Shown here: one piece after another, positions 1,701 to 31,196 of the stretch
Numbering within the stretch: the first letter of the stretch is position 1
How the letters are laid out: each line of letters starts with the position of its first letter
Assembly: GCA_009691355.1 (NCBI GenBank)
Contig: SICW01000001.1
Location: 1-40,612, forward strand
From: Candidatus Woesearchaeota archaeon
Lineage (GTDB): Archaea > Nanobdellota > Nanobdellia > SCGC-AAA011-G17 > GW2011-AR17
Direction: 5' to 3'
Length of the DNA: 40,612 nt
Notes under the pieces: generated by a model
Seen by the model: the letters and a program-made list of their open reading frames with translations, nothing else
Databases searched by the model: none
Told to the model about the DNA's origin: nothing
Program-made: the position numbers and the translations under genes

Positions 1701-2876
1701 ATGACAGGGAGAGGAAAACGAGGGCAAACAGCCGTAGAAGTATCTGTTCTTATATTTCTTATTGCGGTTATTATGGTCGGATATATCGTACTCTTACCTG
1801 AAGAAGATAGAAATGAGCTTTTAGGAAGTAGTTCTGATGGAAGTACTACGGGTAGTAGTGATAGTGGATCTGCAGAAACCTTGCTTTCTGAGTCTCCAGG
1901 AGATGTTCAATCTGAAAAGAGTAGCACCCAAATAAGAGCACTAGAACCTATGAGACTTTATTCTACTACAGAATCTAATACACAAACCTTATCTGCTTCT
2001 CTTACTGTTTCTCGAAATATTATCCAAAATAACTATAAGATTGTGAACTTTGATATTGAAAACTTTGATACCATCGCTGGTTCACAACTTCTGTTTTTAG
2101 TCTCTGATTCTAAGGGAGAAATTACCATTCTTCTCAATGACCACCTTATCTATGAAGGAGAACTTACAAGCAATGCACTTCCTTTGGATCTTCCGGTGAG
2201 TTACCTTCAAGAAACAGGAAATGAACTCAAACTATCTACAAGTCTTACTTGGAATATATTTTCTCCAAACTACTATCTCTTACAAGATGTTCAACTTATT
2301 GAGGATTACACCGTTGCAGATACCACTGCTTCACGAACATTCTCTGTTGAAGACCCTTCCCAAGTTACTGATGCTACATTAACCTACTTTATTACTTGTA
2401 ATTCTGATGATGATGGCATACTAAGTGTTTCTTTGAACTCCCAAGAAGTCTTTAGTGATCAAATTTTCTGTGAGTATTTGAATGAAAGAGAATTGAGTTT
2501 AGATACGGATTACTTAAAGACAAGTAATAGTTTGAAATTTGAAATTAATGAAGGAGACTACAATATTGAAGAAGGGCAAGTTGCAATAAAGACAAGAACA
2601 AAAGACTATCCTAGCTTTACTTTTGATATTGATTCTGATCTTTATGATGAAATTAGTTCTGGAAGTAAAGACGTTTATCTCAAGATGACTTTTGATAATG
2701 CAGATGATGAGAAAGAAGGGACCATCCTCATACAGGAATACTCCTTTAGCTTTAATACAGAGGATAATACCTATGAAAAGAAGATAACGGATTACATTGA
2801 TGATGGAGCAAATACCATTACATTAGAACCTGCATCAGACTTTACTATTGATAATTTGAAAGTGTATGTAGAATAG
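1701..2876 (+). CDS. Secreted or surface protein with class III (type IV pilin-like) signal peptide
   Basis: The N-terminus is MTGRGKRGQTAVEVSVLIFLIAVIMVGYIV: a basic stretch, KRG|Q, Glu at +5, then a hydrophobic helix. A Ser/Thr/Asp-rich mature part follows. A GTTTATATATA box (1669-1679) ends 22 nt upstream of the ATG. Confidence 0.5.
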   Translation: MTGRGKRGQTAVEVSVLIFLIAVIMVGYIVLLPEEDRNELLGSSSDGSTTGSSDSGSAETLLSESPGDVQSEKSSTQIRALEPMRLYSTTESNTQTLSASLTVSRNIIQNNYKIVNFDIENFDTIAGSQLLFLVSDSKGEITILLNDHLIYEGELTSNALPLDLPVSYLQETGNELKLSTSLTWNIFSPNYYLLQDVQLIEDYTVADTTASRTFSVEDPSQVTDATLTYFITCNSDDDGILSVSLNSQEVFSDQIFCEYLNERELSLDTDYLKTSNSLKFEINEGDYNIEEGQVAIKTRTKDYPSFTFDIDSDLYDEISSGSKDVYLKMTFDNADDEKEGTILIQEYSFSFNTEDNTYEKKITDYIDDGANTITLEPASDFTIDNLKVYVE

Positions 2877-5349: not shown

Positions 5350-5953
5350 TTTTTGCTTGCTCGGTGTTTACGAGCATTTCGGCAATCATTTGTGGTAGCT
5401 GTTGATGATCTCCAGCCTTAAATGGGCCATAGACCGTTAAATCAGGTCCCACAAACTCAGGAATGTCTTTCAAGACCTGAATCGATAAGCTATCAGTTTT
5501 CTCTTCTCCTTTTAAATCTTTCGGGTCTATCGGCTGTATCGAAGGCATTCTACTCTGTAGAACAGTATTGAGAAGGCCGTCTCTATAAAGATCCAAGTTG
5601 TCTTTTAAAGTGCTGTATAATGCAAACTCCTCAGGAAGCATTGTAGAGGTATCCTGCGCATTTTTGCTTCTTGAGCAGAAAAGAGCGAACTGAATAATTT
5701 TATTCTCCCTCTTTTCATAGAGTTCTCTTAAAATCTTTAAAACATTCTTTAACTGAGTCTGAGTTTTTTCTACTTCTGTGGAAGCAAATATGCTCTGTTT
5801 CTTTGATTGTGATTCCAGAATAGCAGTCTTTTCTTGGAGGTACTTTACCACATCCTGATAGAATGTTTCATCAATTTTTTGTAGCTCTGTACGATATTTT
5901 TCTCTACGAAGTAGTTCATATAAATTTTCGTAGGTGATGATCACTTCTGCCAT
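5336..5953 (-). CDS. GINS subunit (Gins51-like) replication factor
   Basis: The N-terminus is ITYENLYELLRREK...LQKIDETFYQDV and the C-terminus is VLKDIPEFVGPDLTVYGPFKAGD..LP, matching the archaeal Gins51 pattern. I prefer the ATG at 5953 over the TTG at 5962. Confidence 0.5.
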   Translation of the reverse strand: MAEVIITYENLYELLRREKYRTELQKIDETFYQDVVKYLQEKTAILESQSKKQSIFASTEVEKTQTQLKNVLKILRELYEKRENKIIQFALFCSRSKNAQDTSTMLPEEFALYSTLKDNLDLYRDGLLNTVLQSRMPSIQPIDPKDLKGEEKTDSLSIQVLKDIPEFVGPDLTVYGPFKAGDHQQLPQMIAEMLVNTEQAKNEST

Positions 5954-6016
5954 ATATTGCAAAGGGAGGAGTTTCTTTAAATCAATTTCTATGTTCTGTA
6001 CTGGAATTTGTATGGT

Positions 6017-6367
6017 TTAGATGTAAGAGTTTATTGTAGCTAGGCCACTTGTTTTAGATATTGCAGGGATACCTTTCTCTTTACATGCAAGAATTACACG
6101 ATCGCTTCCTGAAATAGCAAGGAATTTTACTCCTGGTTGAACTCTTACGCGTTCATACACTGTTTCTGCTGGAGTTATGTCTCTTCCTCCATATGTTCCG
6201 AGATTTGGATCCATCACATACAACCCATAGTTCCTTTCATCCATTCTTGCTAACATATCATCGAGTGTTGCAACTGAATGAATTTGCCACCCTTTGTCTT
6301 GTGCAAGCTCTTCTATCGTTTCTCTCCAGCTAAGATCATGCATTGCAATTAACGCTCGGCGTTCCAT
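6017..6367 (-). CDS. Stand-alone CheY-like receiver-fold protein (putative)
   Basis: 116 aa. The layout is beta1 ALIAMHD, beta3 GLYVMDPNLG, beta4 FLAISGS and beta5 ISKTS. This mirrors the acidic pocket, phospho-Asp, Ser/Thr and Lys positions of a receiver domain. No kinase partner is in the window. Confidence 0.35.
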   Translation of the reverse strand: MERRALIAMHDLSWRETIEELAQDKGWQIHSVATLDDMLARMDERNYGLYVMDPNLGTYGGRDITPAETVYERVRVQPGVKFLAISGSDRVILACKEKGIPAISKTSGLATINSYI

Positions 6368-6459
6368 ATTCTTTTTTTTTCACTATTCTTTTATTTAAAA
6401 CTATCGTTTCGTTTTTGGTGATTCGTAACTATTATAACTATTACCTTCTGAAAAAACGT

Positions 6460-6783
6460 ATGAAATATATTTGGATTCTTTTGGCTTTCTTCCTTCTTCT
6501 CTCAGGATGCTCTAGTAGTGCAAATACGAACGCTATCCTTGAGGTACAAACATATACTCTTGAAGAGGTATCCCTTCATAATTCCTCAGAGAGTTGTTAT
6601 ACTGCTATTGATGGAAAAGTCTATGATCTGACTACTTGGATTGCAATACACCCAGGAGGGGATGCTGCGATTTTAAGCCTCTGTGGGATAGATGGCTCAG
6701 AAAAGTTTAATGAGAAACATGGAAATAGTGGTTCTGCAAAGTACGAACTCTCTTTATTCTACATAGGGGAGCTTGCCCCATAA
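6460..6783 (+). CDS. Lipobox-anchored cytochrome b5-like heme/steroid-binding domain protein
   Basis: MKYIWILLAFFLLLSGC carries a lipobox. YTLEEVSLHNSSESCYTAIDGKVYDLTTWIAIHPGG is the cytochrome b5 HPGG motif. The upstream part of ORF 6343.. overlaps the neighbouring gene and is low complexity. Confidence 0.6.
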   Translation: MKYIWILLAFFLLLSGCSSSANTNAILEVQTYTLEEVSLHNSSESCYTAIDGKVYDLTTWIAIHPGGDAAILSLCGIDGSEKFNEKHGNSGSAKYELSLFYIGELAP

Positions 6784-13340: not shown

Positions 13341-14072
13341 TTAGATAGGAAAGTCTAATTTTACTTGTTCTTCATAGTTAAACTTTTCATACGTTTCATC
13401 ATAACGTTCTAAACAGTCCGTAATGATATTCTCTACTCTTCTTTCTACTAGAGTTACTCTCTCTCCACCTGTTAAAGGAGAATAATATGTATAGGGGTAG
13501 CTAACACCGAAATCATGGATATATCTTTTTACATTGGATTTAAACGTTCTTTTTTCCCAAAATGTTCCTCCACTTCTTCTGGAGTTATATTCTTTGACTA
13601 ATTCTATTGATTTCCTTAAAAAAGTAGGAAACAATAGATCTTTTCTCAATTTTGTTTCTCCCATTAATTGCATAACTTGAAAGTTAAATATTATGGACTC
13701 AGAAGGAATTTCTACATCTCCAGACCTATTAATATTTTCTTGGACTATAAGTTCTATGCCACTCTCTTTAGCATATCCATCCAGTCCTCTAGAATGTCCA
13801 TAAGAGCTTGAGGAAAACTCCAATGCTAATCCAGAATATAACCATCTTTCTTTTAGAACACAACCTCTTACTATGATGAGAGGAGTTACTTTGCACTGCG
13901 TTAAGCTTCTATATTCTTCGTCTTTTAATTGAAAGCTTTTCCCATCTTGAATACTATACACATCCTCATGGAAGTCGCTTACTCCCCCTTTAGGATTAAA
14001 TTTGCTTAGGTTGAATTTTCTCATCTTCTCTTTATTTAGTAGTAACAGCTTATTGTTAAAAGTATCTGCCAT
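13341..14072 (-). CDS. Hypothetical protein (orphan)
   Basis: It is a long open frame with host-like AT-rich codon usage. The ATG at 14072 lies about 21-25 nt from a TATA-like box in the 39-nt divergent spacer. I recognised no family motif. Confidence 0.5.
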   Translation of the reverse strand: MADTFNNKLLLLNKEKMRKFNLSKFNPKGGVSDFHEDVYSIQDGKSFQLKDEEYRSLTQCKVTPLIIVRGCVLKERWLYSGLALEFSSSSYGHSRGLDGYAKESGIELIVQENINRSGDVEIPSESIIFNFQVMQLMGETKLRKDLLFPTFLRKSIELVKEYNSRRSGGTFWEKRTFKSNVKRYIHDFGVSYPYTYYSPLTGGERVTLVERRVENIITDCLERYDETYEKFNYEEQVKLDFPI

Positions 14073-16811: not shown

Positions 16812-17889
16812 AGAAGATTCAAAAAATGCATTGAAAGATCTTGGAGCAAAAATTGTGCACCAAGTGAAAAAAGGGAAGAACCCAGAAATGGTGTTTCCTC
16901 TGAGAAATTTAAGTAATATTGTGTATGATAAAAAGTCTAAAACTTTGAAACTAGGGAATAAAACCGGAACGAGAAGTTTCTTTAATGTTGCACACTCGAA
17001 GAAATTTTTGCAGACTGTGGAGGTTGCTTCTGTCATTAAAGATAAACTCTTAGATAGCGGAAAGCATTCTAGTCTGCGAGATGTGTTTTATATGGTTAAA
17101 AAGACTATTCCTGGAACTAAGGTTAATCTTGTTGATGATCAAACAGAGTCGGATAAAGCAATTGAAGATCTTGAAGTCATGACCGGAATCTCTCGAGAAG
17201 AAATGCATGTGAATGCAAATAAGAATGGGAGTGTCGCTGGAAAAGTTATTATTGAAGATAGAGGGGATACCATTGATTGGAGTAAGTTAGGTAGTGGAGG
17301 ATGGTCTATCCCATCAAATGTGGAAGAAATTACATTCAAAAAAGTTGATGCGAAGTATGTCTTGTACATGGAAAAGGCTGCTGTATGGGAAAGGTTAAAT
17401 GAAGATAAATATTGGCAAAAAAATGATGCTATTATTCTTGCATCTCAGGGGCAAACAACACGAGGTATTCGGAGACTGCTTCAAAGGCTTTATGAAGAAT
17501 ATAATCTCCCGATTTATGTCTGTTGTGATGGAGATATATATGGTGCATATATTTACTCTGTGATTAAGTATGGCTCTATTGCCCTTTCTCATGCTTCAGA
17601 AAGACTCACTATTCCTAGTGTAAGGTATATTGGAATTACTATGGATGATATAGAGAAATATGACTTAAAAAAACATTTTATTACTCTTGATGAAAAGGAC
17701 TATGCACGAATTAAACAAGTTTCTGAGTATGAATGGTTTAAAGATAATAAAGACTGGCAGAGACAGTTCAAGATGATGAAAGAGTTTAAAGCAAAAGTAG
17801 AAATTCAGGCTTTAAGTGCGCGAGGAATTAGTTTTATCTCTGAAGAATACTTGCCTAAAAAAATAAAGAATAAAGAATTTTTAGATTAA
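16804..17889 (+). CDS. top6A: DNA topoisomerase VI subunit A (Spo11 homolog)
   Basis: It overlaps top6B by 8 nt. It has the Toprim acidic cluster YVCCDGDIYGAYI and the LRDVFY catalytic-Tyr region. Confidence 0.9.
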   Translation: MSKEDSKNALKDLGAKIVHQVKKGKNPEMVFPLRNLSNIVYDKKSKTLKLGNKTGTRSFFNVAHSKKFLQTVEVASVIKDKLLDSGKHSSLRDVFYMVKKTIPGTKVNLVDDQTESDKAIEDLEVMTGISREEMHVNANKNGSVAGKVIIEDRGDTIDWSKLGSGGWSIPSNVEEITFKKVDAKYVLYMEKAAVWERLNEDKYWQKNDAIILASQGQTTRGIRRLLQRLYEEYNLPIYVCCDGDIYGAYIYSVIKYGSIALSHASERLTIPSVRYIGITMDDIEKYDLKKHFITLDEKDYARIKQVSEYEWFKDNKDWQRQFKMMKEFKAKVEIQALSARGISFISEEYLPKKIKNKEFLD

Positions 17890-20132
17890 GAGTAGATTAT
17901 ATTTCTTGCTTCAGGGGCTTCTCTATTCACTTCTCGAAGATCTTTGTAGATGGTTGAAGTAGATACACCATACACTGCTGCAAGGGATCTTACAAGCTCT
18001 GCTTTAGGCTTTCCTAAACCATATTGCAAAGATCTTTCCCAAACGTCAAACCTTCTGTCTTGCATTTCTCTGTGAAGCATTCCTTCACGTGTATCTGGAA
18101 GAGAATCTGTTTTTAGATCTTGAGCAGTGATTTTTTCATCTAAGCCTTCATTGACAAATCGAATTATTTCTTTTACTGTCATATAGGTTTCTCTATCCCT
18201 TCTCTCTCCCGCTTTCATGTAAAGATCTCGTGCAAGTTCAAGACGCTCTTCTCTTACAACAGAAGGATCAATACTATTAGATGTTGGTTCTCCACTATCT
18301 TGTGTTTGGTTGTACTGACGTGCAACATTGAGAATCACATCTCCCATTAATAATGGGTCTTCTACGAATGGAAGATCTCTTTCTATTTGACGAAGCTCAA
18401 AGTACTCTTGTGTGATTCTTCCTAGGCCGGGAAGTTCTGTACTTTCAAAATTATCGTGCACAATCCTTTCCAAAGATTCTTGTACTTCTTGGGGAAGAGG
18501 AGTTGAAATAAATTCTTTTGGTGCAGCTACAACCAAGGTATCAGCTCTGTAGACTACATTTCTTTTTCCATCTTTCATTCCTTCAGGAGAGAAATCTGCT
18601 CTATGCACAAGAGGAGAAGGATTCTTTTTGTGATCTAAGTTTGCATCAAGAACGTCTCTGGTTAGATCTATGATCGGAGCAACTTTATCCCTGTCTAATG
18701 ACCGAATATGGGTTGTGTTTGCAGATACAACAAGACTAACTTGTTCTGAAGCTAGCCATTGGGCAAGGTCATATAAGGCTTCTCTGTTCCATCCATTTTC
18801 GATCATCGCAGCTATATACTGAGATGTTCCTACACCTGGAAGAACAAATTTTATGCTAAGAGTATCATCAGAAGGATCTGCTCCATCATTAAGATTATAG
18901 GTAAAGATTCTTTCGTCTTCATCTTCTTTTCTTCTTCGACTAGGGAGGATAGCTTCTGCTAAAACGCCTCTTGCTGTATCTTTATCTTTAGGCTCTGCAC
19001 TTTTTACAATAGGACCTTCTACAGGAGCTTGTGCAACTTGTGTTTGTTCTATAGTGAGTTCTAAAGGAACTTCTGCATAAATAACATTTCTTGTTGGATC
19101 TTTTAATCCTTTAAGAGTCAATCTTTCTTTATAGACATCATCAGGATTTTGCTCTGCAATCACTTCTACAAGACCAAGGACTTTACGCAACTCCACTTTT
19201 GTTGCATGAGGCAAATCTCTTTGCGTTGCACGAAGCTTGGACTCTTGCCAACTTAAAGACATAGCTGCAAGATTTTCAAGACTATCATTTTGTGCAATAA
19301 CTGCAGCATAATTTGCAAGGCCAAGACCTTTGATAGGACGGATAGTAAGAGTATTATTTTCATACGTGAATATCTTTTGTGACTTACCAGCTACTGAGAT
19401 GGGTAACTCTGTCATTTCAGGAAGAGGTTCTTCAATATGGACTCTTGTTTCTGGAAGAGGAAGGGGAGATTCAGCTACAATAGGCTCTGGTTTATGAGAA
19501 GCATTATAATTAAGAAAACTGGTTACTACTCCACATCCGATTATAGCTGCTCCTTGTATAGCAAGGCGAGTACCAAGAATTATACCTGTAGGCAAATAAC
19601 TTGGAGATGGAGATCTTTTTGGAACGGATGTAAAAGGAAGAGGAGATTCTTTAACCACTTTAGGCTCTTTTGGAACATAAGGAAGGGGTGCAGCTGGATC
19701 TTCTTCTGCAAGTGCTGGTAAAGGTTCATTATCAGTTGCTCCGCTTGCCCCAGGTAGAACATCTACTCTTCCGGTTGAGCCTACAACAATAGTATCTCTT
19801 TGATATGTTGGGGCATCTTGTACGCGATCAGAGCCACCCAAGGCAAGAAGACCATTATCTACAACTTGAGGTCCATCAGGATCAGTATGCACTTCTCTAG
19901 GATGGACGTGATATACAGCAATTTGCATTGCTCTGCTACCATCACTAGAAGGTACAAGCCTTTTTCCAAGAACAAGGTCTTCTGATTGGAGATGTACTTC
20001 AGCTTTTCCCATTAATAGCTTTATAGCCATGGGAGTCATACCATCTGTTCTTAATTTCTGTTTTAATGCAGGAATATCTCCTCCAGTTCTCATTTGGTGT
20101 ACAACTTCATCTAACACTTTATTATCAGTCAT
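17886..20132 (-). CDS. Large orphan single-pass membrane protein with internal duplication and C-terminal helix-turn-helix
   Basis: 748 aa. A TM helix spans about aa 181-206 (GIILGTRLAIQGAAIIGCGVVTSFL). There are Pro-rich EPLP/SPLP linkers and two homologous modules (aa ~254-357 and ~409-535). The C-terminal LVRSLAAVYGVSTSTIYKDLREV looks like an HTH. Confidence 0.6.
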   Translation of the reverse strand: MTDNKVLDEVVHQMRTGGDIPALKQKLRTDGMTPMAIKLLMGKAEVHLQSEDLVLGKRLVPSSDGSRAMQIAVYHVHPREVHTDPDGPQVVDNGLLALGGSDRVQDAPTYQRDTIVVGSTGRVDVLPGASGATDNEPLPALAEEDPAAPLPYVPKEPKVVKESPLPFTSVPKRSPSPSYLPTGIILGTRLAIQGAAIIGCGVVTSFLNYNASHKPEPIVAESPLPLPETRVHIEEPLPEMTELPISVAGKSQKIFTYENNTLTIRPIKGLGLANYAAVIAQNDSLENLAAMSLSWQESKLRATQRDLPHATKVELRKVLGLVEVIAEQNPDDVYKERLTLKGLKDPTRNVIYAEVPLELTIEQTQVAQAPVEGPIVKSAEPKDKDTARGVLAEAILPSRRRKEDEDERIFTYNLNDGADPSDDTLSIKFVLPGVGTSQYIAAMIENGWNREALYDLAQWLASEQVSLVVSANTTHIRSLDRDKVAPIIDLTRDVLDANLDHKKNPSPLVHRADFSPEGMKDGKRNVVYRADTLVVAAPKEFISTPLPQEVQESLERIVHDNFESTELPGLGRITQEYFELRQIERDLPFVEDPLLMGDVILNVARQYNQTQDSGEPTSNSIDPSVVREERLELARDLYMKAGERRDRETYMTVKEIIRFVNEGLDEKITAQDLKTDSLPDTREGMLHREMQDRRFDVWERSLQYGLGKPKAELVRSLAAVYGVSTSTIYKDLREVNREAPEARNIIYS

Positions 20133-25867: not shown

Positions 25868-26245
25868 TTAAACTCCGAAGTTTTCTTGTAAGAACATAAG
25901 CATATTTTTATTATCTAAAATCTCAAAAAGCATCTTTGCCTGTTGCCCTTTTCCTTGGTTCATACATTCATGTGCACAGGCTTCCATTCTTCTTCGATCT
26001 TGCGAAAATTTATAGAAATATGCTGCATCAGGGAAACGTCCTTGTTTTGCTAACCAATCACCGGAAGCGAGGAGTTCTTCTTTTAAGCCAGCTTTTGCGA
26101 AAGCTTTACCCGATTCTTCAAATAGGGATTCCTTGAATAAAATTGTTCCTGCTTCAAGAAGTGTCTTTTTTCTAATGCTTTCAGGGATTTCTACATTATC
26201 CACACCCTTGGACATAATGAGTTTTGTGATTATTCCATATTCCAT
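25868..26245 (-). CDS. Hypothetical small helical protein
   Basis: 125 aa with an ATG start. The helical-repeat-like sequence reads GKAFAKAGLKEELLASGDWLAKQGRFPDAAYFYKFS. It is divergent from the PLP-enzyme gene. Confidence 0.45.
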   Translation of the reverse strand: MEYGIITKLIMSKGVDNVEIPESIRKKTLLEAGTILFKESLFEESGKAFAKAGLKEELLASGDWLAKQGRFPDAAYFYKFSQDRRRMEACAHECMNQGKGQQAKMLFEILDNKNMLMFLQENFGV

Positions 26246-26285: not shown

Positions 26286-27149
26286 GTGGAAGATACTTTT
26301 AAAAAGACTCTTTTTCTTTTTCTTGCTGTGGAAGACCTAGAAACACTTACAAAGAAAATTGATCAAAAACTACGCACACTTACCAGACATGAGCATGTGC
26401 ACCTTACGGATAGAGGGAACTCTGCAATTTTCCTTGCTATGCATATTGCAAAAAAAATGAATCCCAAAGCAGACATTCTTATTCCAGATCAAGGAGGATG
26501 GTTTTCTTATAAAGGATATCCACAGTTCTTCGGCTTTAATATCGTCGAAGTAAAAACAGACTATGGGATTATTGATTTGAAAGATTTAAAGAGAAAGGCA
26601 AAGACTGGATCTTGTTTCATCTTTAGCTCTTTTGCAGGATATTTTGCTGAACAACCTTTACGAAAAATTAAAACGATTTGCAAGAAAGCAGGTTGCCTTA
26701 TGATTGAAGATGCTTCTGGTGCGATTGGAGATACGAAACTCTGTAATGGAAATTACTCCGATATTATTGTAGGAAGTTTTGGAAAGTGGAAACCTGTAGA
26801 ATGTGGCTATGGTGGATGGATTTCTGTGAAGAGTAAAGAATATTTTGATGTTGCACAGGAAGCTCTCTCCATTACAAAAGTACACCCTCAGTTTTATCGA
26901 GAGATTGGAGAAGCATTAAAAAATAATAAATTCAAAAAATTGCTTGCATTACAGAACACAGTAAAACAGGAACTGAAAGATTTTGAGGTATTACATCGAG
27001 ATTCACGAGGATTAAATGTGGTAGTGAAGTTTGACCCTAGAGTTCTTGCGTACTGTATAGAAAAAAAATACCCTTATGTCCTTTGCCCTAGTTATATTCG
27101 TGTCAATGAAAGGGCTGTTTCTATCGAGTTGAAACGATTGTCCTTCTAG
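26286..27149 (+). CDS. PLP-dependent (fold-type I, aminotransferase-class-like) enzyme, short form
   Basis: It has TDRGNSAIFLAMHIA, ILIPDQGGW, MIEDASGAIGD and GSFGKWKP (a candidate PLP lysine). The start is uncertain: GTG at 26286, 25 nt after a TTTATAAT box, or GTG at 26328. The ORF-track start at 26133 overlaps the divergent gene. Confidence 0.5.
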   Translation: MEDTFKKTLFLFLAVEDLETLTKKIDQKLRTLTRHEHVHLTDRGNSAIFLAMHIAKKMNPKADILIPDQGGWFSYKGYPQFFGFNIVEVKTDYGIIDLKDLKRKAKTGSCFIFSSFAGYFAEQPLRKIKTICKKAGCLMIEDASGAIGDTKLCNGNYSDIIVGSFGKWKPVECGYGGWISVKSKEYFDVAQEALSITKVHPQFYREIGEALKNNKFKKLLALQNTVKQELKDFEVLHRDSRGLNVVVKFDPRVLAYCIEKKYPYVLCPSYIRVNERAVSIELKRLSF

Positions 27150-27158
27150 AGTAGCAAC

Positions 27159-27168
27159 ATTTATATAG
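27159..27168 (+). promoter_or_regulatory. TATA box ATTTATATAG
   Basis: It ends 22 nt upstream of the ATG at 27190, which is leaderless geometry. Confidence 0.45.
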
Positions 27169-27189
27169 TTCCTTTCTTGGTTGATTATA

Positions 27190-27996
27190 ATGAACATCCA
27201 CGTACTCACAGAAAGGAAGGGCTCAAACCCTGGAGGAAAAGTCCACTTAGACTTAGGTCAGAGGAAGGGGGATTATTACTTTAAGTACTGCGTGGGAAAT
27301 AAGTCCGGTGAAGAAAGACTCCTTGCTGAACACCAACCGATATATGAAGCTGCTACCCTTGCTTGGACTGAACATATAGGACTTCACGTACCTACATTTT
27401 TTGTTCTTGTAAGAAACTCCCCCATGACTTTTTCTTATCGAACACCCGTACCGCGTTTAGATGCACAGAAGCCATATTATTTGCTTTCTCAGCTTGTGGA
27501 ATTACCTTGCGAAGTGGATGAGAAAAGACTGAGTGAAATTCTTGCTAAAGAGAAAGTGTATAGAGACTGCCTTGGAATTACGGATGTTTCTGGAAAAAGA
27601 CAAAACTATACCCACATACACAATGAAGCAGAGGATTATGCACTCTATATTGATCTAGGTTGTAGCTTTGTTCATGCGGTTGGAGGATTTATTATAAGAC
27701 GTAAACATAGTGCACCACCTGCAAAACGTGAACGAAAAAGAATGGAAAAAGCTTTGCAAGAACATGCACTTGAGACTCCGAGGGGAGAATTATTACGATT
27801 TTCAGAAGTCTATGAGCTTCTCTTTCAAACACCTATTCCTCTTGTGGATACCCAACGGGGTGTACTACGAAAAGGGACACTAGAATCTTTGTTACATCCA
27901 GATGAACAAGAATGCATCAGAGAAATAGTCTTCACAGAAATATATGAAACTCTTAAGAGACATAAAAAACTACATTCTCCTAAAATTATTTTTTAG
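27190..27996 (+). CDS. Atypical protein-kinase-fold (PI3/4-kinase-like layout) protein, putative
   Basis: The ordered motifs are a Gly-rich loop KGSNPGGKV, Lys in YYFKY, Glu in IYEAATLAW, a hinge-like YLLSQLVE, ITDVSGKRQN (Asp...Asn) and YIDLGCSF (DFG-like). Confidence 0.35.
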   Translation: MNIHVLTERKGSNPGGKVHLDLGQRKGDYYFKYCVGNKSGEERLLAEHQPIYEAATLAWTEHIGLHVPTFFVLVRNSPMTFSYRTPVPRLDAQKPYYLLSQLVELPCEVDEKRLSEILAKEKVYRDCLGITDVSGKRQNYTHIHNEAEDYALYIDLGCSFVHAVGGFIIRRKHSAPPAKRERKRMEKALQEHALETPRGELLRFSEVYELLFQTPIPLVDTQRGVLRKGTLESLLHPDEQECIREIVFTEIYETLKRHKKLHSPKIIF

Positions 27997-28013
27997 ATAT
28001 TTAGTTGAGGAAA

Positions 28014-28023
28014 ATTTATATAG
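28014..28023 (+). promoter_or_regulatory. TATA box ATTTATATAG
   Basis: It ends 24 nt upstream of the ATG at 28047. Confidence 0.45.
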
Positions 28024-28046
28024 CTACAGATTTTCTTAGACGTACA

Positions 28047-28763
28047 ATGAACTTCATCAGAAAAATTGCAGAAGGGAAAAGTGACGAATGGACGAAAAGA
28101 CAATTCACTCGTTATGGTATGGGGACATATGAACAAAAAGCACTTCTTCAAATAAGTAAAGGAAAAAAGGGAGGAAAAATTTCTTCCAGTTTTGAATTTG
28201 CTCCAGACTTTGCGTATGCACTTGCAGAAAGTGTGAAAAATAAAGTACAGGTCACTGGAGGTATTATTACCAAACAAAAGCTTACAGAAGAGGATGCGGG
28301 CTTTCCTTTTGCAGGGATGAAGCAATTTGCTGGTGTGAAAACATATTTGATTGATACTGATCTTACCAAAGCACAGATTCAAGGACTCTTTGGAAAATAT
28401 TCTTCTGGGCTTGTCCTTCTTTCTTTCAAAACAGATATGGGAGAATTAAAAACAAAAGTAAAAAGTCCTAAGTCTACGAAAGCAAAGATTGAGGGAGAAA
28501 ATGCAGAATTACCTAAGGCTGATTTTTGTAGTTTTAAAACAACAGATATGAAAATTCTAGAGGATTATGCATTTGATGTGGCGAAAGATTTTACGAAGGT
28601 GTTTATTATGCATAGTTTTGTTATTGAAAGTTTAGAGATTCCTAAACAATATGAGAAAGACTTTGTACTTGCTCGGCTTCATGCACTCAGAAAGGGAAAA
28701 TTAATAAGGGAGATTCACCTAGGAGAGAAGAAGATTGGCAAAGAATACACACTCTCGGTCTAA
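28047..28763 (+). CDS. Hypothetical protein (orphan)
   Basis: 238 aa from MNFIRKIAEGKSDEW. The ORF-track TTG start at 28005 would include the TATA box. I recognised no family motif. Confidence 0.5.
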   Translation: MNFIRKIAEGKSDEWTKRQFTRYGMGTYEQKALLQISKGKKGGKISSSFEFAPDFAYALAESVKNKVQVTGGIITKQKLTEEDAGFPFAGMKQFAGVKTYLIDTDLTKAQIQGLFGKYSSGLVLLSFKTDMGELKTKVKSPKSTKAKIEGENAELPKADFCSFKTTDMKILEDYAFDVAKDFTKVFIMHSFVIESLEIPKQYEKDFVLARLHALRKGKLIREIHLGEKKIGKEYTLSV

Positions 28764-28773
28764 GAAAGAAGAA

Positions 28774-29019
28774 GTGAAAAAAGAGCACGTTGTTGTACGT
28801 GCAAGTAGAGCTGTGTATTATGTTCTAGGGGCATTCTTTGAAGCTCTGACTAGCGATTTTCCGAGTAATGTACGAAAGAGGTATGCACGACCCCGAGATG
28901 AATATGTTGAGGTTAAAGTTCCTCGAGGGTATAAAGATACGAAAGGTGGACCAGAGTATAAAGACCTCTCTTCTACGAACGAATTCTCTGATTTTGGTGG
29001 TTTGCCTGGTTTTAAGTAG
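28774..29019 (+). CDS. Hypothetical small protein (weak call)
   Basis: The open frame 28735..29019 overlaps the upstream stop. A GTG at 28774 preceded by GAAAGAAGAA is a possible start. It could also be non-coding. Confidence 0.3.
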   Translation: MKKEHVVVRASRAVYYVLGAFFEALTSDFPSNVRKRYARPRDEYVEVKVPRGYKDTKGGPEYKDLSSTNEFSDFGGLPGFK

Positions 29020-29048
29020 CTACTTTTAAGGAGTTACAAAAAGGGAAG

Positions 29049-29058
29049 ATTTATATAG
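29049..29058 (+). promoter_or_regulatory. TATA box ATTTATATAG
   Basis: It ends 22 nt upstream of the ATG at 29080. Confidence 0.45.
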
Positions 29059-29079
29059 TCTTTTTTATGCTTAAATGGT

Positions 29080-29982
29080 ATGGTAAGCTCAAAAGTTGTG
29101 AAATGCCCTGGCCGTTTTAGCCAAACAAGAGAGAAGGTCTTTGAAGCAGTAGATGTTGCTTTAGAAGGAAGAATAAATGTCACTGAACATGACCTCGCAA
29201 CAGTGTGGGATCTCATTTCAGGAGACTTAGCTGGCCTTGATGGGAGAGATCCTTATTATGAGCCAACAGAAGATGTAAGTAGAACTCCTCCCCATGATAA
29301 TTACCTTTCTCTTGTTCCTCTTTTTCCAAGCACTTATACTTTGACACCAGAGATTCGAGAGAAACATGCACTTTCTCGAGGAGTCGATCCACGTATTGCA
29401 ATACAACTAGCGGCTATGGCTAGCTCTGGAAGAAATTTTTTTACAGGGCAATTAGGAAAAGATGCTGCTAAACTTCACGTTGATAAAAATGTTACTCTTT
29501 CAGGATATGTTATTGGATCAAATGTAGGAGTTGGTACATTATCAGATGGTGGACCAGAAGGAGGAGGCACACGATCCGACTCTCCTTATCTTATTGAAAT
29601 TTCTAAAAGAGAAGGAAGAGGGAGAGATGAAAGATTAAACCTGGCAGCAGTTGTAGGTTTCTGGGCTGAAGGAGATACCATGCTTGTTTCCCAAATGCAA
29701 TCTTGTAAAAATGCAACCCTTCCGGAAGGGCCGTACTTTGGATTAACTTGTGTTACTATTGCTGAGCGTGTTGCTCGTGAAATAGGATTTGAAAAAATAG
29801 CACTTTATACTGGAAGAGCGCACCCTTATTTCCTTGAACACCATGAGAGTTGGGCTAGAATGGGACAGCTCTTTGTTTGTATGTGGGATGGCTCAGCAAA
29901 AAAACTAGGATTTGATGGATCTCGAGTTCAAACGAGGACTTATACAAAAACTATTGGAACCGGAATTCGGGAGCGACTTTAG
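29080..29982 (+). CDS. Orphan protein, paralog A (unique N-domain plus GNAT-like C-terminal half)
   Basis: It shares VKC.GRF, DPY, LVPLFPS, TLSGY, G.G.RSDSP.LIEI, EGRG and L.SQ.Q.C.NA.LP with the next gene. The C-terminal pattern is strand, Q..., helix, GF..., HP.F, KK.G. That pattern resembles an acyl-CoA N-acyltransferase fold. Confidence 0.55.
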   Translation: MVSSKVVKCPGRFSQTREKVFEAVDVALEGRINVTEHDLATVWDLISGDLAGLDGRDPYYEPTEDVSRTPPHDNYLSLVPLFPSTYTLTPEIREKHALSRGVDPRIAIQLAAMASSGRNFFTGQLGKDAAKLHVDKNVTLSGYVIGSNVGVGTLSDGGPEGGGTRSDSPYLIEISKREGRGRDERLNLAAVVGFWAEGDTMLVSQMQSCKNATLPEGPYFGLTCVTIAERVAREIGFEKIALYTGRAHPYFLEHHESWARMGQLFVCMWDGSAKKLGFDGSRVQTRTYTKTIGTGIRERL

Positions 29983-30016
29983 AAACGTTTAAAATTAGGA
30001 GATAAAAATCATAACA

Positions 30017-30898
30017 ATGCCAGGCGAAAGAAAATCTGTGAAGTGTGAAGGAAGATTTCCTGAACTGAGAGAATATCTTTTTGGCACGCCAGTAGATATG
30101 GTTCTTGGTGAAAGAAAAACTGTTAGTGCCAAGGATCTTGATGACCTTTGGAGTTTGATTAAAGGAGATATCTACCAACATGATCTTAAAGACCCTTACT
30201 TTATGTCTCACTGTGATCTCGCAAGAAAGCAACCAGAACTACACCCTTATGCTCTTGTTCCCCTTTTTCCTTCTCCGGATTATATTCTTGCAGTACAATT
30301 GGTACAGCTATATACAATGAGCTTAGGTGTTTCATTTACTGTTTCTGAAAAAATGGAGGGAATGGCTCGACTCCCAGAACGGTTTCTTCTTGAAGAACTT
30401 AAACTTGAACCAAGATTAATTGAATTCCCAAATAGGGCTACACTCTCTGGATATGATTTACATACACATTTTGGAATTGGGACTATTAGCCTAGGTGGTG
30501 TAGAGGGATCTGGTATTCGTTCTGATTCACCTCATCTTATTGAGATTTATAGAAAAGAAGGAAGAGGTCAAAGAAATCTTGCTGGAGTTGTAGGTTTCTT
30601 GGTTCAAGATGAGGATATGCTTATCTCCCAAATACAAGCATGTAGAAATGCAGCTTTACCTAGTGGAGTTCCCTTAGGAGTTGGCTCTATTATTACTGCA
30701 GAACATATTGCGAAAACTCTCGGTTTTAAAAGAATGAAAATTTATACTGCTCGAGGTCACCCACATTTCAAAAAAGACCCTAACTCTTGGAGGAGAATGG
30801 GTAAGGAGTTTATAGAAATATTTGATACTTCCGTAAAAAAAATTGGAGGATATAAAGGTGATGGTGAAAAAGATCAAGTTTTTACAAAAACGCTCTAA
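30017..30898 (+). CDS. Orphan protein, paralog B of 29080..29982
   Basis: It is co-linear with paralog A along its full length, at very roughly 40-50% identity by eye in the C-terminal ~150 aa. An AGGAG lies 16 nt upstream of the ATG. Confidence 0.55.
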   Translation: MPGERKSVKCEGRFPELREYLFGTPVDMVLGERKTVSAKDLDDLWSLIKGDIYQHDLKDPYFMSHCDLARKQPELHPYALVPLFPSPDYILAVQLVQLYTMSLGVSFTVSEKMEGMARLPERFLLEELKLEPRLIEFPNRATLSGYDLHTHFGIGTISLGGVEGSGIRSDSPHLIEIYRKEGRGQRNLAGVVGFLVQDEDMLISQIQACRNAALPSGVPLGVGSIITAEHIAKTLGFKRMKIYTARGHPHFKKDPNSWRRMGKEFIEIFDTSVKKIGGYKGDGEKDQVFTKTL

Positions 30899-31112: not shown

Positions 31113-31196
31113 ATTTTTTTCATAGGAAGAGTATTATTTAAATGTTCCCCCTCGAGAAAGACTAATCTACATACTCTAGCACATACTATTTCGAAA

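What the first reader, a model, noticed from the sequence alone, without database searches (positions are those of the whole stretch)
27159..30898. Same-strand block of five orphan genes wedged between core genes
All five ORFs are on the + strand with short gaps of 50, 10, 60 and 34 nt: 27190..27996, 28047..28763, 28774..29019, 29080..29982 and 30017..30898. They sit between the metG side and the histone / ribosomal operon side, which is otherwise a purely informational neighbourhood.

I cannot place any of the products in a named family. Three of the genes carry the identical 10-nt box ATTTATATAG, 22-24 nt upstream of their ATG. That suggests separately initiated, similarly regulated, leaderless units.

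The readable parts are a kinase-like fold and two acyltransferase-like paralogs, with a PLP enzyme immediately upstream. Together they hint at a small-molecule, peptide or aminoacyl modification pathway, or a conflict or host-interaction module. This function is inference only.
Basis: partly seen in the sequence, partly recalled or inferred. Interest (0 to 1): 0.7.

Follow-up and report, generated by a model that had tools for sequence, protein, structure and literature searches.

The report
Mosaic of accessory enzyme genes
The five unannotated genes are real, but they are not one pathway: a conserved core gene pair of a tiny symbiotic archaeon is surrounded by fast-evolving kinase-like and acetyltransferase-like genes, and the gene families of these belong to a gene set that shares one distinctive promoter element across many related genomes.

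Summary
There are five + strand ORFs at the stated coordinates with gaps of 50, 10, 60 and 34 nt, none has a Pfam, NCBIfam, PHROG or PADLOC hit, and ATTTATATAG occurs three times.

The window is a whole Candidatus Woesearchaeota contig. The block is a mosaic, not an operon or pathway.
- **ORF2** (238 aa) is a conserved core gene found at the head of the rpl3 operon or nearby (rpl3 detected within 6 kb downstream in 18 of 27 distinct genome loci). Its confident model has no match among solved structures.
- **ORF3** is its small, lineage-restricted partner.
- **ORF4 and ORF5** are old paralogs with a diverged GNAT-like C-terminal half. They sit in a hypervariable slot that in sister genomes holds Fic, nucleotidyltransferase-like or glycosyltransferase genes.
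- **ORF1** is a kinase-like insertion. Its family normally lies between gatD and gatE.

The 10-nt box is the generic archaeal TATA box. ORF4, however, carries a 46-nt palindrome, BRE and TATA element (E=4e-10). In 923 kb of related loci this element precedes only ORF1-family genes, ORF4-family genes and other modification-enzyme genes, ending 21-23 nt before the ATG.

My best reading is a set of separately transcribed, co-regulated, fast-evolving macromolecule-modifying enzymes. Their targets are inferred, not shown.

The parts
27140..27176 (+). ORF1 promoter: BRE-like GTAGCAACA followed by the TATA box (TTTATATA at 27160-27167). It resembles the histone promoter on the opposite strand and is not an R1 element.
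   Evidence: The TATA centre lies 26.5 nt before the ATG. There is a 37-nt, 73% inverted match to 31126-31162. The promoter model R1 matches only the TATA part (5.2 bits, E 1.4). The same TAGAGTAG(T/C)AAC+TATA arrangement occurs in L090.
27190..27996 (+). ORF1, 268 aa. It belongs to a closed, DPANN-labelled kinase-like family. It is a lineage-specific insertion between the PLP gene and ORF2.
   Evidence: Invariant residues in the family alignment: G11-x-N13-P14-G15 (S12 and G16 nearly invariant), K32, E53, D132...N139, D155-x-G157. The family has 149 representatives and no bridge to any known family. The only recurrent Pfam hint is HipA_2 (5 of 53 members, E>=0.06). ORF1 is absent from all 31 ORF2 loci. 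The arrangement PLP-ORF1-ORF2 is present in L090.
28014..28023 (+). TATA box of ORF2. It is a generic promoter and is conserved in close relatives.
   Evidence: AAAATTTATATA is conserved about 30 nt before the ORF2 ATG in L006, L007 and L009-L011. There is no significant R1 match (E 2.5).
28047..28763 (+). ORF2, 238 aa. A conserved core gene that lies at the head of the rpl3 ribosomal-protein operon or nearby in most related genomes examined. Its predicted fold has no solved counterpart.
   Evidence: 67 homologs at 34-86% identity. 31 genome loci (27 distinct), with rpl3 detected 0.1-5.3 kb downstream on the same strand in 18 of the distinct ones. Model pLDDT 93.2. Best PDB Foldseek match: E 0.13, probability 0.05. 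An invariant K139-x-P141-x-x-x-K145 lies in the only low-confidence loop.
28774..29019 (+). ORF3, 81 aa. A small basic protein that follows ORF2 only in the Woesearchaeal sub-lineage. It has a conserved C-terminal F-x-G-[LF]-P-G-[FL]-K.
   Evidence: 12 orthologs were aligned; homolog starts agree with the GTG at 28774. It is present in L006-L018 only. pI 9.4.
29012..29057 (+). R1 element: degenerate left half-site, then TAAGGA-GTTACA, then GGGAAGA (BRE), then TTTATATA. This is the specific promoter element of ORF4.
   Evidence: It is the only significant hit in the window to a model built without the window: 35.5 bits, E 4e-10; the next best hit has E 0.27. Its left end overlaps the ORF3 stop codon.
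29080..29982 (+). ORF4, 300 aa: an N-terminal helical domain (about 1-130) plus a Gly-rich beta region and a diverged GNAT-like core (about 130-295).
   Evidence: Model pLDDT 93.8, pTM 0.92. The 50 best PDB matches listed are all acetyltransferases, nearly all named GNAT-family members (probability up to 0.99, E>=0.016, 123-162 alignment columns). Most high-probability matches in the viral library BFVD are also acetyltransferases. There are 23 invariant residues across 44 homologs.
29988..29995 (+). TATA-like TTTAAAAT before ORF5, followed by AGGAG at 29997-30001. ORF5 either has its own weak promoter or is read through from ORF4.
   Evidence: From the sequence. The same gatttaaaattaggagataaaaa stretch is conserved in L006. 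There is no significant R1 match.
30017..30898 (+). ORF5, 293 aa: the fast-evolving paralog of ORF4. Its stop codon lies 1 nt from the stop of the convergent histone gene.
   Evidence: 40% identity to ORF4. Only 49% identity to its L006 ortholog, where rpl3 is 95% and the histone 93%. It keeps the residues that are invariant in the family alignment, which included it.

Best explanation
The block is a mosaic of two kinds of gene.

**1. A conserved backbone.** The order is metG(-), a 125-aa gene(-), a short DegT-like PLP-fold gene(+), ORF2(+), ORF3(+), then histone(-) and the rpl3 operon(+). ORF2 is a conserved gene of Woesearchaeota and Nanoarchaeia-type genomes with no solved structural relative. 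It is probably tied to the translation apparatus; that last point is inference from position only.

**2. Accessory genes lodged in two variable slots of that backbone.** ORF1 lies between the PLP gene and ORF2. The ORF4/ORF5 pair lies between ORF3 and the histone.

ORF1 is a small protein with a protein-kinase-like motif set. ORF4 and ORF5 are old paralogs with a diverged GNAT acyltransferase core behind a private helical domain.

Each unit has its own TATA box about 26-28 nt before its ATG, so the transcripts are probably leaderless.

ORF4, probably together with ORF5, is driven by a 46-nt element: TTGTAAC-N9-GTTACAA, then GAAAGA, then TTTATA. In related genomes this element precedes ORF1-family genes, ORF4-family genes, Fic, AbiEii-like and other nucleotidyltransferase-like genes, eukaryote-type protein kinases, a low-molecular-weight phosphatase and a GT4 glycosyltransferase. 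It never preceded a ribosomal-protein gene, an aminoacyl-tRNA synthetase gene or a gat gene in the loci searched.

I read the palindrome as the operator of a dimeric transcription factor. On that reading the two families belong to a co-regulated, rapidly turning-over set of enzymes that modify macromolecules by phosphorylation or acylation.

- **Shown:** gene content, synteny, fold of ORF4, the motifs, and the distribution of the element.
- **Inferred:** operator function, enzymatic activity, and targets. Because the two families repeatedly sit in the gatD|gatE slot and after rps10, I guess that the targets are components of aminoacyl-tRNA synthesis or translation.
For: **Synteny**
- The backbone is conserved in L007-L018, L033 and L034, with and without ORF1 and ORF4/5.
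- The ORF3|histone slot holds different genes in different genomes: the ORF4-family pair (window, L006, L007); a 75-aa ORF4-family remnant (L011); weak AbiEii-like genes (L010, L013); Fic at 1e-14 (L014); GT4 at 1e-17 (L015); an NTP_transf_2-like gene plus another (L016); and an unknown gene plus a metallophosphoesterase (L018).
- The ORF1 family lies directly before gatE in 23 of 37 loci with enough context, with gatD within three genes upstream in about 20.
- The ORF4 family takes the same position in L039, L086 and L088.
- Both families also follow rps10: L087 for the ORF4 family, L089 for the ORF1 family.

**Fast evolution**
- ORF1 is 51% identical in L090, while the flanking PLP gene is 82% and ORF2 85%.
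- ORF5 is 49% identical in L006, while rpl3 is 95%.

**Folds and motifs**
- for the GNAT-like core; for the kinase-type motif order.

**Promoter element**
- The model was built without the window. It hits the window once, at the ORF4 promoter, with E 4e-10.
- In 923 kb it gives 48 hits at E<0.01, of which 21 were not in the training set. In most, an ATG-initiated ORF begins 21-23 nt after the end of the element.
- The downstream genes were identified.
- Of 1108 genes in the loci, 456 have a TATA-like box at the right distance, but only 31 also have the half-site, and these are concentrated in the ORF1 and ORF4 families and the slot genes.
Against: - No experiment supports any activity.
- The kinase-like call for ORF1 rests on motif order and spacing plus sub-threshold HipA hints. 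hhalign against E. coli HipA gave 3% probability, and no structure model of ORF1 could be made.
- The GNAT matches are consistent but individually weak (E>=0.004; TM 0.2-0.28 relative to the query). No Pfam acetyltransferase profile is matched.
- In this window ORF1 lacks the element, so co-regulation of ORF1 and ORF4 here is not shown.
- The strong gatD-ORF1family-gatE synteny could mean a housekeeping partnership rather than accessory status.
- In these small genomes a large share of genes are translation genes, so proximity to them is weak evidence about targets.
- Many loci are related to one another, so counts of loci are not independent events.
Confidence: 0.55

Rival explanations
1. The PLP enzyme, the kinase-like protein, ORF2, ORF3 and the two acyltransferases would form one pathway that makes or modifies a small molecule, a peptide or an aminoacyl compound.
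For: All are on the same strand with short gaps. A PLP fold, a kinase-like protein and GNAT-like proteins lie next to each other. The PLP-ORF1-ORF2 order recurs in L090.
Against: There is no conserved co-occurrence. ORF1 is missing from all 31 ORF2 loci, and ORF4/5 are present in 2 of them besides the window. ORF1-family and ORF4-family genes are adjacent in only one other locus, and there they lie next to gatD and gatE, not next to the PLP gene or ORF2. The units have separate promoters. Evolutionary rates within the block differ widely.
Confidence: 0.05
2. The ORF1 family, and perhaps the ORF4 family, would be dedicated housekeeping partners or regulators of tRNA-dependent amidation (GatDE, GatCAB, non-discriminating AspRS). 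An example would be a kinase that tunes Gln-tRNA and Asn-tRNA formation. The window copy would then be a displaced paralog.
For: The order gatD-(0 to 2 small genes)-ORF1family-gatE-aspS, with gatB, gatA and gatC nearby, occurs in roughly 20 loci whose ORF1-family proteins are only about 30% identical to one another. The ORF4 family sits directly before gatE in L039, L086 and L088. A subgroup of the ORF1 family lies before cysS, and the window copy is two genes from metG.
Against: gatE has its own TATA box immediately after the ORF1-family stop codon in at least 20 loci, so the two are not co-transcribed. The gatD|gatE interval also holds Fic, nucleotidyltransferase-like and membrane-protein genes, so it behaves as a variable slot. 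ORF1-family genes carry the regulated promoter element, whereas the gat genes do not. The ORF1 family evolves far faster than its neighbours.
Confidence: 0.2
3. The proteins would be detoxifying enzymes for translation-targeting antibiotics or aminoacyl-nucleotide mimics. ORF1 would be an APH-like phosphotransferase and ORF4/5 AAC-like or MccE/RimL-like acetyltransferases.
For: The best PDB match of ORF4 is an aminoglycoside 6'-acetyltransferase. ORF1 has a Y-x-D-L-G motif like that of aminoglycoside phosphotransferases (the comparison is from my own knowledge). Rapid evolution and patchy distribution fit resistance genes.
Against: The order of Foldseek hits among GNATs at E 0.02-0.1 carries no functional information. 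Nothing ties the families to small-molecule substrates. The other genes that share the promoter element (Fic, protein kinases, a protein phosphatase, AbiEii-like genes) act on macromolecules.
Confidence: 0.08
4. The 46-nt element would be a recombination or cassette-boundary site rather than a transcription-factor operator. Diverse cargo genes would swap into fixed slots through it, and the cargo genes would have no function in common.
For: The same element sits at the same backbone position, overlapping the ORF3 stop codon, in front of unrelated cargo genes in L007, L010, L013, L015, L016 and the window. The same cargo families also appear in the gatD|gatE slot.
Against: No second site exists at the 3' end of the cargo: the cargo stop codons lie 0-8 nt from the histone stop codon. 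No integrase lies next to these slots. The element includes the BRE and TATA at a fixed 21-23 nt from the ATG, as expected of a promoter. The downstream genes share a biochemical theme.
Confidence: 0.12

Closest known systems
GNAT (Gcn5-related N-acetyltransferase) superfamily, including aminoglycoside AAC(6'), RimI, NatD and the GNAT toxins TacT/AtaT
   Same: The C-terminal ~160 residues of ORF4 are predicted to form a beta-strand, helix, strand, helix, strand arrangement. Foldseek matches this region to acetyltransferases of this superfamily throughout the top of both the PDB and BFVD lists.
   Different: There is no sequence-profile match to any Pfam or NCBIfam acetyltransferase model. The protein has a private ~130-residue N-terminal helical domain with a K-C-x-G-R-F motif. 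It also has a Gly-rich beta region whose consensus is GIGTxSxGGxxGGGxRSDSP. The loop where acetyl-CoA pyrophosphate is normally bound reads CKNAxxPEGxxFG instead of Q/R-x-x-G-x-G/A. No neighbouring antitoxin gene is present.
HipA / HipT serine-threonine kinase toxins and the wider protein-kinase-like superfamily
   Same: The order and spacing of invariant residues match protein kinase A closely. ORF1 has G11...G16, then K32 (+21), E53 (+21), D132 (+79), N139 (+7), D155 (+16). Protein kinase A has G50, K72, E91, D166, N171, D184 (the PKA numbering is from my own knowledge). The only recurrent sub-threshold Pfam and PDB hits are HipA_2, HipA_C and HipT, aligned over the E-A-I-T-x-x-L-A-x-x-x-G-L-x-x-P helix. 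Like HipA, whose target is GltX, the family sits next to aminoacyl-tRNA genes.
   Different: Nothing reaches significance: hhalign probability 3%, Pfam E>=0.06. The spacing from the catalytic Asp to the Asn is 7 rather than 5. There is no HipB-like partner gene. The family keeps a stable chromosomal position over about 30% sequence identity, unlike mobile toxin-antitoxin modules.
Archaeal upstream operator or activator sites, such as the TrmB-family palindromes (Thermococcales glycolytic motif) and the GvpE UAS upstream of the BRE (PMC2241852, title and abstract as listed)
   Same: It is an inverted repeat placed directly upstream of the BRE and TATA of a defined gene set. One TrmB-family gene (L028, with its ortholog in L027) itself carries the element upstream, and TrmB-like genes lie beside the gatD cluster in L039 and L079.
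   Different: The sequence TTGTAAC-N9-GTTACAA and its gene set have not been described in anything I could find. Binding by any factor is untested.
Variable genomic hot spots ('defence islands') that hold Fic/Doc, AbiEii and other toxin-like genes
   Same: A fixed backbone position is occupied in different genomes by unrelated, fast-evolving genes, including Fic and AbiEii-like nucleotidyltransferase-like genes, with a decayed remnant in L011.
   Different: The slots hold one or two genes, not islands. They lie inside housekeeping clusters of a roughly 1-Mb-class genome. No partner antitoxins were seen, there are no PADLOC hits for the window genes, and no relatives were found on viral contigs.

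Membership tests
GNAT acyltransferase superfamily (ORF4, ORF5) | Mixed alpha/beta GNAT core fold | tested here: met
   The model has pLDDT 93.8. The 50 best PDB hits listed are all acetyltransferases, nearly all named GNAT-family members, with probability up to 0.99 and 123-162 alignment columns. E-values are only 0.016-0.15. Most high-probability hits in BFVD are also acetyltransferases.
GNAT acyltransferase superfamily (ORF4, ORF5) | Sequence-profile match to an acetyltransferase family model | tested here: not met
   No Pfam or NCBIfam acetyltransferase model was hit by ORF4, ORF5 or any of the 44 family members, even at E<=10.
GNAT acyltransferase superfamily (ORF4, ORF5) | Pyrophosphate-binding Q/R-x-x-G-x-G/A motif in the beta4-alpha3 loop | tested here: inconclusive
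   The loop between strand 200-208 and helix 220-235 reads CKNATLPEGPYFG, with invariant P215 and G221. This is a longer and different motif. A glycine at the helix N-terminus is kept.
GNAT acyltransferase superfamily (ORF4, ORF5) | Acyl-CoA-dependent transfer activity | not testable with these tools
   This needs biochemistry.
Protein-kinase-like superfamily / HipA-like kinases (ORF1) | Ordered Gly-loop, Lys, Glu, catalytic Asp...Asn and metal-binding D-x-G residues | tested here: met
   Invariant G11, N13, P14, G15, K32, E53, D132, N139, D155 and G157 (S12 and G16 nearly invariant) across 53 homologs, with spacing close to that of protein kinase A.
Protein-kinase-like superfamily / HipA-like kinases (ORF1) | Significant profile match to a kinase family | tested here: not met
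   Pfam on ORF1 gives nothing. Across the family, HipA_2 is hit by 5 of 53 members with best E 0.062, and HipA_C by 1. The PDB profile search gives HipA_C and HipT at E 0.23. hhalign against E. coli HipA gives 3% probability. NCBIfam shows nothing recurrent. A profile search of 1.84 billion representatives found only the closed family.
Protein-kinase-like superfamily / HipA-like kinases (ORF1) | Bilobal kinase fold | not tested
Type II toxin-antitoxin module (HipBA-like or GNAT-RHH-like) | An adjacent small antitoxin gene conserved together with the toxin | tested here: not met
   ORF1-family genes are flanked by gatD, small membrane-protein genes and gatE. ORF4-family genes are flanked by diverse genes. 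Neighbour clustering found no recurrent small partner with a DNA-binding domain.
Operon or biosynthetic gene cluster of the five genes | Conserved co-occurrence and gene order in other genomes | tested here: not met
   Only ORF2-ORF3 (12 loci) and the ORF4/5 pair (3 lineages) travel together.
Archaeal BRE/TATA promoter with leaderless transcript | A TTTAWATA box centred about 26-28 nt before the start codon | tested here: met
   This holds for ORF1, ORF2 and ORF4. The same class of box precedes many other genes in the window. Transcription start sites themselves were not measured.
Integron-like gene cassette | A recombination site at the 3' end of each cassette and a nearby integrase | tested here: not met
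   The cargo stop codons lie 0-8 nt from the convergent histone stop codon. No flanking repeat was found. No integrase is present in these slots.

The most novel reading that the evidence does not exclude
The 46-nt palindrome-promoter would define a switchable regulon, specific to Woesearchaeota and Pacearchaeota, of enzymes that covalently modify the translation machinery. The kinase-like ORF1 family would sit between gatD and gatE because it phosphorylates the Glu-tRNA(Gln)/Asp-tRNA(Asn) amidation machinery or an aminoacyl-tRNA synthetase. The GNAT-like ORF4 family would acylate a related target. Together they would give these host-dependent archaea a HipA/TacT-like brake on translation, used for dormancy or conflict and built from previously unrecognised enzyme families. 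Separately, ORF2 would be a new-fold component of the translation apparatus specific to this clade.
Probability: 0.2. Interest if true: 0.85.

Novelty: new variant of a known kind. Interest (0 to 1): 0.62.

Why it matters
DPANN archaea have tiny genomes in which a large share of genes has no assigned function. This analysis places three such families.
- One is a closed kinase-like family wedged into the gatD-gatE cluster.
- One is a GNAT-like family with a private N-terminal domain.
- One is a conserved gene near the head of the main ribosomal-protein operon whose confident model matches no solved structure.

It also uncovers a long, conserved promoter element that links the first two families to Fic, nucleotidyltransferase-like, protein-kinase and phosphatase genes across many genomes. 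To my knowledge no cis-regulatory regulon has been described for these uncultured archaea. The element gives a concrete handle: it is a binding site with which to look for the regulator, and it defines a gene list. If the enzymes act on aminoacyl-tRNA synthesis, that would point to a way for these symbionts to control translation.

The practical lesson for the scan is that a tidy same-strand block of unknown genes can be a composite of a core gene and swappable cargo.

Tried and rejected
**Searches that found nothing**
- Pfam, NCBIfam, PHROGs and PADLOC on the five proteins.
- Pfam and NCBIfam on every member of the three family alignments at E<=10. This gave only HipA_2 hints for the ORF1 family.
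- Sequence and profile searches of the PDB for ORF1, ORF2 and ORF4: no significant hit.
- Foldseek of the ORF2 model against the PDB: no credible neighbour. The local EF-G-domain matches have probability <=0.38.
- hhalign of the ORF1 family against E. coli HipA: 3% probability.
- The whole-library profile search with the ORF1 family reached no known family.
- Viral contig scans for the ORF1 and ORF4 families: no relatives.
- tRNA and Rfam scans of the window: nothing.
- Literature searches for GatDE with DPANN, Hp0100, HipA with DPANN, MJ1341, and Woesearchaeota promoters: nothing relevant.

**Ideas rejected**
- General linkage of the ORF1 and ORF4 families. No ORF4-family gene occurs in any of the 46 ORF1-family metagenome loci; the two are adjacent only in L039 and close together only in the window.
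- The palindrome as an RNA hairpin. 81% of positions can pair, but compensatory change is scant and the right half is nearly invariant.
- ORF1-family genes co-transcribed with gatE. gatE has its own TATA box.
- Flanking repeats of a mobile element around the block. The only long inverted match is promoter against promoter.
- Compositional evidence for recent transfer. GC content is uniform.

Full report
**1. Check of the observation**

ATTTATATAG occurs three times in the 40.6-kb window, at 27159, 28014 and 29049. Chance expectation is 0.15. None of the five products matches Pfam, NCBIfam, PHROGs or PADLOC at any meaningful level. ORF4 and ORF5 are paralogs at 40% identity, E 3e-75. GC content is flat across the block. 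The window holds no tRNA gene and no Rfam match.

The window is an entire 40,612-bp contig of a Candidatus Woesearchaeota genome assembled from a metagenome; ORF4 carries the locus tag EXS74_00175. The rest of the contig is informational: aRF1, PAC2, aIF2-alpha, topoisomerase VI A and B, an aspartokinase-like gene, an Orn/DAP decarboxylase, MetRS, and the rpl3 operon.

**2. All five are real genes with homologs, but from separate families**

- The ORF4/5 family has 45 clusters, all unannotated; every source name that is given is archaeal (Woesearchaeota, Nanoarchaeota, 'archaeon') apart from one record labelled 'bacterium'.
- The ORF2 family has 67 hits at 34-86% identity.
- The ORF1 family has 67 hits in the word-indexed search. 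A profile search of 1.84 billion representatives found 149, almost all full-length ones of 260-310 residues, with nothing beyond the family.
- ORF3 has 12 orthologs in the loci fetched.

**3. Synteny shows a mosaic**

I fetched 31 genome loci (27 distinct) that encode an ORF2 relative and mapped all the window's genes onto them.

In close and intermediate relatives (L007-L018, L033, L034) the order is: metG(-), a 125-aa gene(-), a 273-aa DegT-like PLP-fold gene(+), ORF2(+), ORF3(+), a variable interval, histone(-), then rpl3-rpl4-rpl23-rpl2. In more distant Nanoarchaeia, and in one Iainarchaeum-labelled genome, ORF2 is usually still on the same strand a short way upstream of rpl3, but without the PLP gene, ORF3 or the histone. 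Overall rpl3 was detected 0.1-5.3 kb downstream of ORF2 in 18 of the 27 distinct loci; several of the remaining loci are short or end near ORF2. ORF2 is thus a conserved core gene.

ORF1 is absent from all 31 loci. The ORF4/5 pair is present only in the lineages of L006/L008 and L007/L012. L011 keeps a 75-residue N-terminal remnant.

The interval between ORF3 and the histone holds other genes elsewhere:
- a weak AbiEii-like nucleotidyltransferase-like gene in L010 and L013;
- Fic (E 1e-14) in L014;
- a GT4 glycosyltransferase (1e-17, which also matches the 'GT4-conflict' model at 5e-9) in L015;
- an NTP_transf_2-like gene plus a second gene in L016;
- an unknown gene plus a metallophosphoesterase in L018.

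The five-gene unit therefore does not exist outside this genome.

One short contig, L090, repeats the PLP-ORF1-ORF2 arrangement. There ORF1 is 51% identical, while the PLP gene is 82% and ORF2 85%. In L006 the identities are rpl3 95%, histone 93%, ORF2 86%, ORF3 85%, ORF4 76% and ORF5 49%. ORF1 and ORF5 evolve much faster than the backbone.

**4. What the proteins look like**

*ORF4.* With a 44-sequence alignment the model has pLDDT 93.8 and pTM 0.92. It has a helical N-terminal domain of about 130 residues, a Gly-rich beta region, and then a strand-helix-strand-helix-strand core. The 50 best PDB hits listed by Foldseek are all acetyltransferases, nearly all named GNAT-family members: AAC(6')-Ii, YhbS, NatD, PatZ, RimI, GCN5 and HAT1. 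Probabilities reach 0.99 over 123-162 alignment columns, but E-values are only 0.016 and worse. In the viral library most high-probability hits are again acetyltransferases. No sequence profile of any acetyltransferase family is matched. I accept a GNAT-like core at the level of fold, and leave cofactor and substrate open.

The tandem pair is old. In the distant locus L001, one copy is closer to ORF5 (49%) and the other to ORF4 (51%), in the opposite order. Single-copy genes in other genomes are closer to ORF4.

*ORF2.* The model has pLDDT 93.2. It has no credible PDB neighbour: the best hit has E 0.13 and probability 0.05, and short local matches to EF-G domains have probability <=0.38. The one low-confidence loop contains the invariant K139-x-P141-x-x-x-K145.

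Across 53 homologs the invariant residues are G11, N13, P14, G15 (with S12 and G16 nearly invariant), K32, E53, D132, N139, and D155-L-G157. Their order and spacing are those of the protein-kinase Gly-loop, Lys, alphaC-Glu, catalytic loop and DFG motif. The comparison with protein kinase A numbering is from my own knowledge.

The only recurrent weak database signal is HipA. HipA_2 is hit by 5 of 53 members (best E 0.062) and HipA_C by one. HipA_C and HipT are the top two hits of the PDB profile search at E 0.23. All align over one helix. hhalign against E. coli HipA gave 3% probability. Membership of the HipA family is not established. 'Kinase-like' is a reasoned inference.

**5. Where the ORF1 and ORF4 families usually live**

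I fetched 46 metagenome loci that encode ORF1 relatives and clustered their neighbours.

In 23 of the 37 loci with enough context, the gene directly downstream on the same strand is gatE, and in about 20 gatD lies one to three genes upstream. aspS follows, and gatB, gatA and a gatC-sized gene are nearby. A subgroup lies before cysS. In L089 the family member follows tuf-rps10.

The ORF4 family was seen in eight distinct contexts. In three of them it sits directly before gatE:
- L039: gatD, ORF4-family gene, ORF1-family gene, gatE;
- L086;
- L088.

In L087 it follows tuf-rps10. Elsewhere it lies beside rpl15e (L003), between Cdc6 and a SET-domain gene (L001), or among unknown genes (L005).

The two unrelated families therefore alternate in the same few slots. 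The gatD|gatE interval is itself variable. It also holds a Fic gene from the same cluster as the one in the L014 slot, nucleotidyltransferase-like genes, and small membrane-protein genes. gatE has its own ATTTAATAAA box immediately after the ORF1-family stop codon in at least 20 loci, so the two genes are not one transcript.

**6. The promoter box and the longer element**

TTTAWATA boxes 22-31 nt before start codons occur at aRF1, the 391-aa gene, the histone, the gene at 14124 and others. The spacing before ORF1, ORF2 and ORF4 places the box centre 26.5-28.5 nt before the ATG. This fits leaderless transcripts and is conserved in relatives.

When I aligned upstream regions of ORF1-family and ORF4-family genes from many genomes, a much longer conserved element appeared: TTGTAAC-N9-(AGG)GGTTACA-N3-5-GAAAGR-TTTAWAWA.

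A crude count over 1108 genes in about 1 Mb gave these figures:
- 456 genes have a TATA-like box at the right distance.
- Only 31 also have the half-site.
- These are concentrated in the ORF1 family (13), the ORF4 family (4) and the slot genes.

I then aligned 27 sites, deliberately excluding the window, and built a sequence-only model, R1. With filters off, the window has a single significant hit, 29012-29057 on the + strand, at 35.5 bits and E 4e-10. That is the ORF4 promoter. The next best hit has E 0.27. The promoters of ORF1, ORF2 and ORF5 match only the TATA part.

Over 81 loci (923 kb) there are 48 hits at E<0.01, of which 21 were not in the training set. In most of them the first ATG-initiated ORF of at least 45 residues begins 21-23 nt after the end of the element. 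The downstream genes are:
- ORF1 family (23);
- ORF4 family (7);
- Fic (L079);
- AbiEii-like or related nucleotidyltransferase-like genes (L010, L013, L043, L065, L084);
- an NTP_transf_2-like gene (L016);
- GT4 (L015);
- eukaryote-type protein kinases (L089 with Pfam E 4e-20; its close homolog in L041);
- a low-molecular-weight phosphotyrosine phosphatase (L070, 6e-18);
- a TrmB-family regulator, where the ATG lies about 50 nt beyond the element (L028; its ortholog in L027 has a weaker hit at E 0.015);
- several small unknown genes.

No ribosomal-protein, aminoacyl-tRNA synthetase or gat gene is among them.

The two half-sites are complementary in 81% of positions, with little compensatory change and a nearly invariant right half. 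That fits a protein-binding DNA palindrome better than an RNA stem.

In the ORF3|histone slot, the left end of the element overlaps the ORF3 stop codon whatever the cargo gene is. The cargo's stop codon abuts the histone stop codon. There is therefore no second site of the kind a cassette system would need.

**7. Interpretation**

The best-supported account is this. ORF2 and ORF3 are backbone genes. ORF1 and ORF4/5 are accessory, fast-evolving enzymes of kinase-like and GNAT-like type. They occupy variable slots inside housekeeping clusters. Their families, together with other enzymes that covalently modify macromolecules, share a conserved operator-like promoter element across genomes.

That these enzymes act on translation components is an inference. 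It rests on the recurrent gatD|gatE, rps10, cysS and rpl3-operon positions, and on the analogy with HipA (target GltX), GNAT toxins (target aminoacyl-tRNA), Doc/Fic and AbiEii/MenT (target tRNA). Those analogies come from established knowledge of those families, not from tests made here.

Against a classical toxin-antitoxin reading: there are no partner genes, no PADLOC hits and no viral relatives. The position of the ORF1 family is also stable over deep divergence.

The main rival is that the ORF1 family is a true partner of the amidotransferase machinery.

**8. Novelty**

I found no literature on these families or on the element. The enzymes are new, very divergent variants of known fold classes. 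The ORF2 model has no solved counterpart. The promoter-defined gene set in DPANN archaea appears to be undescribed.

Limits of the work:
- Many loci are phylogenetically related.
- Gene calls in the loci are my own simple ORF calls.
- E-values from the shortened model calibration are rough.
- No activity, transcript or binding has been measured.

Noticed in passing
window 25868..26245 (-) and 26328..27149 (+); L007, L009-L018, L033, L034, L090: A 125-aa gene with no family match and a short (273-aa) DegT/DnrJ-like PLP-fold gene form a divergent pair next to metG. The pair is conserved across many Woesearchaeal genomes. Precomputed Pfam annotation also lists a weak hit to MJ1341_C. The best PDB relative is a Kdo8N transaminase, at only E 4e-5. 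The long TTG-start ORF at 26133 overlaps the 125-aa gene, so the real start is probably the GTG at 26328, which gives the 273-residue length of the homologs.
   Followed up: partly
L049, L051, L053, L055-L059, L061, L065-L068, L070, L072, L077, L082 (interval between the ORF1-family stop codon and gatE): gatE is preceded by a conserved ATTTAATAAA box placed directly after the stop codon of the upstream ORF1-family gene, about 25-30 nt before the gatE ATG. gatE therefore appears to be leaderless and separately transcribed in these genomes.
   Followed up: partly
L011 11024..11251: A 75-residue N-terminal remnant of an ORF4-family gene (HMM E 1e-21) sits in the ORF3|histone slot and is followed by short unrelated ORFs. 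This looks like a decayed copy and is direct evidence of turnover in the slot.
   Followed up: partly
window 27140-27176 (+) and 31126-31162 (-): The ORF1 promoter and the histone promoter are 73% identical over 37 nt (GTCYTTCTMGAG...SAACA-TTTAWATA). They face each other across the whole block. This is probably a second shared promoter type rather than the ends of a mobile element.
   Followed up: no
L028 about 5721-6615 (-), L027 about 607-1498 (-); L039 2058-2777; L079 818-1558: A TrmB-family regulator gene carries the R1 element upstream, with its ATG about 50 nt beyond the element instead of about 22 nt. This would fit autoregulation. TrmB-like genes also lie next to the gatD cluster in L039 and L079. 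These are candidate binders of the palindrome.
   Followed up: partly
window 17886..20132 (-), 1701..2876 (+), 13341..14072 (-): Three more sizeable ORFs (748, 391 and 243 aa) have no Pfam match at E<=0.001. Relatives of the 748-aa ORF cluster with it (cluster c40) in several related loci.
   Followed up: no
window 1652-1700: Only 49 nt separate the divergent aRF1 gene (-) and the 391-aa gene (+). The interval holds one palindromic TTTATATATA stretch that could serve as a TATA box in both directions.
   Followed up: no
L007 / L012 (GCA_030697685.1, contig JAUYPF010000048.1): The record is labelled 'bacterium', but it carries an archaeal histone, archaeal-type ribosomal proteins (S4e, L26/L24e-type order), SUI1 and RNase P p29 in the same order as the window. 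The taxonomic label is evidently wrong.
   Followed up: no
window 28459-28500 (ORF2 residues about 138-151): The only low-confidence loop of the ORF2 model (K-V-K-S-P-K-S-x-K) contains invariant Lys and Pro residues. An invariant motif in a disordered, Lys/Ser-rich loop suggests a binding or modification site.
   Followed up: no
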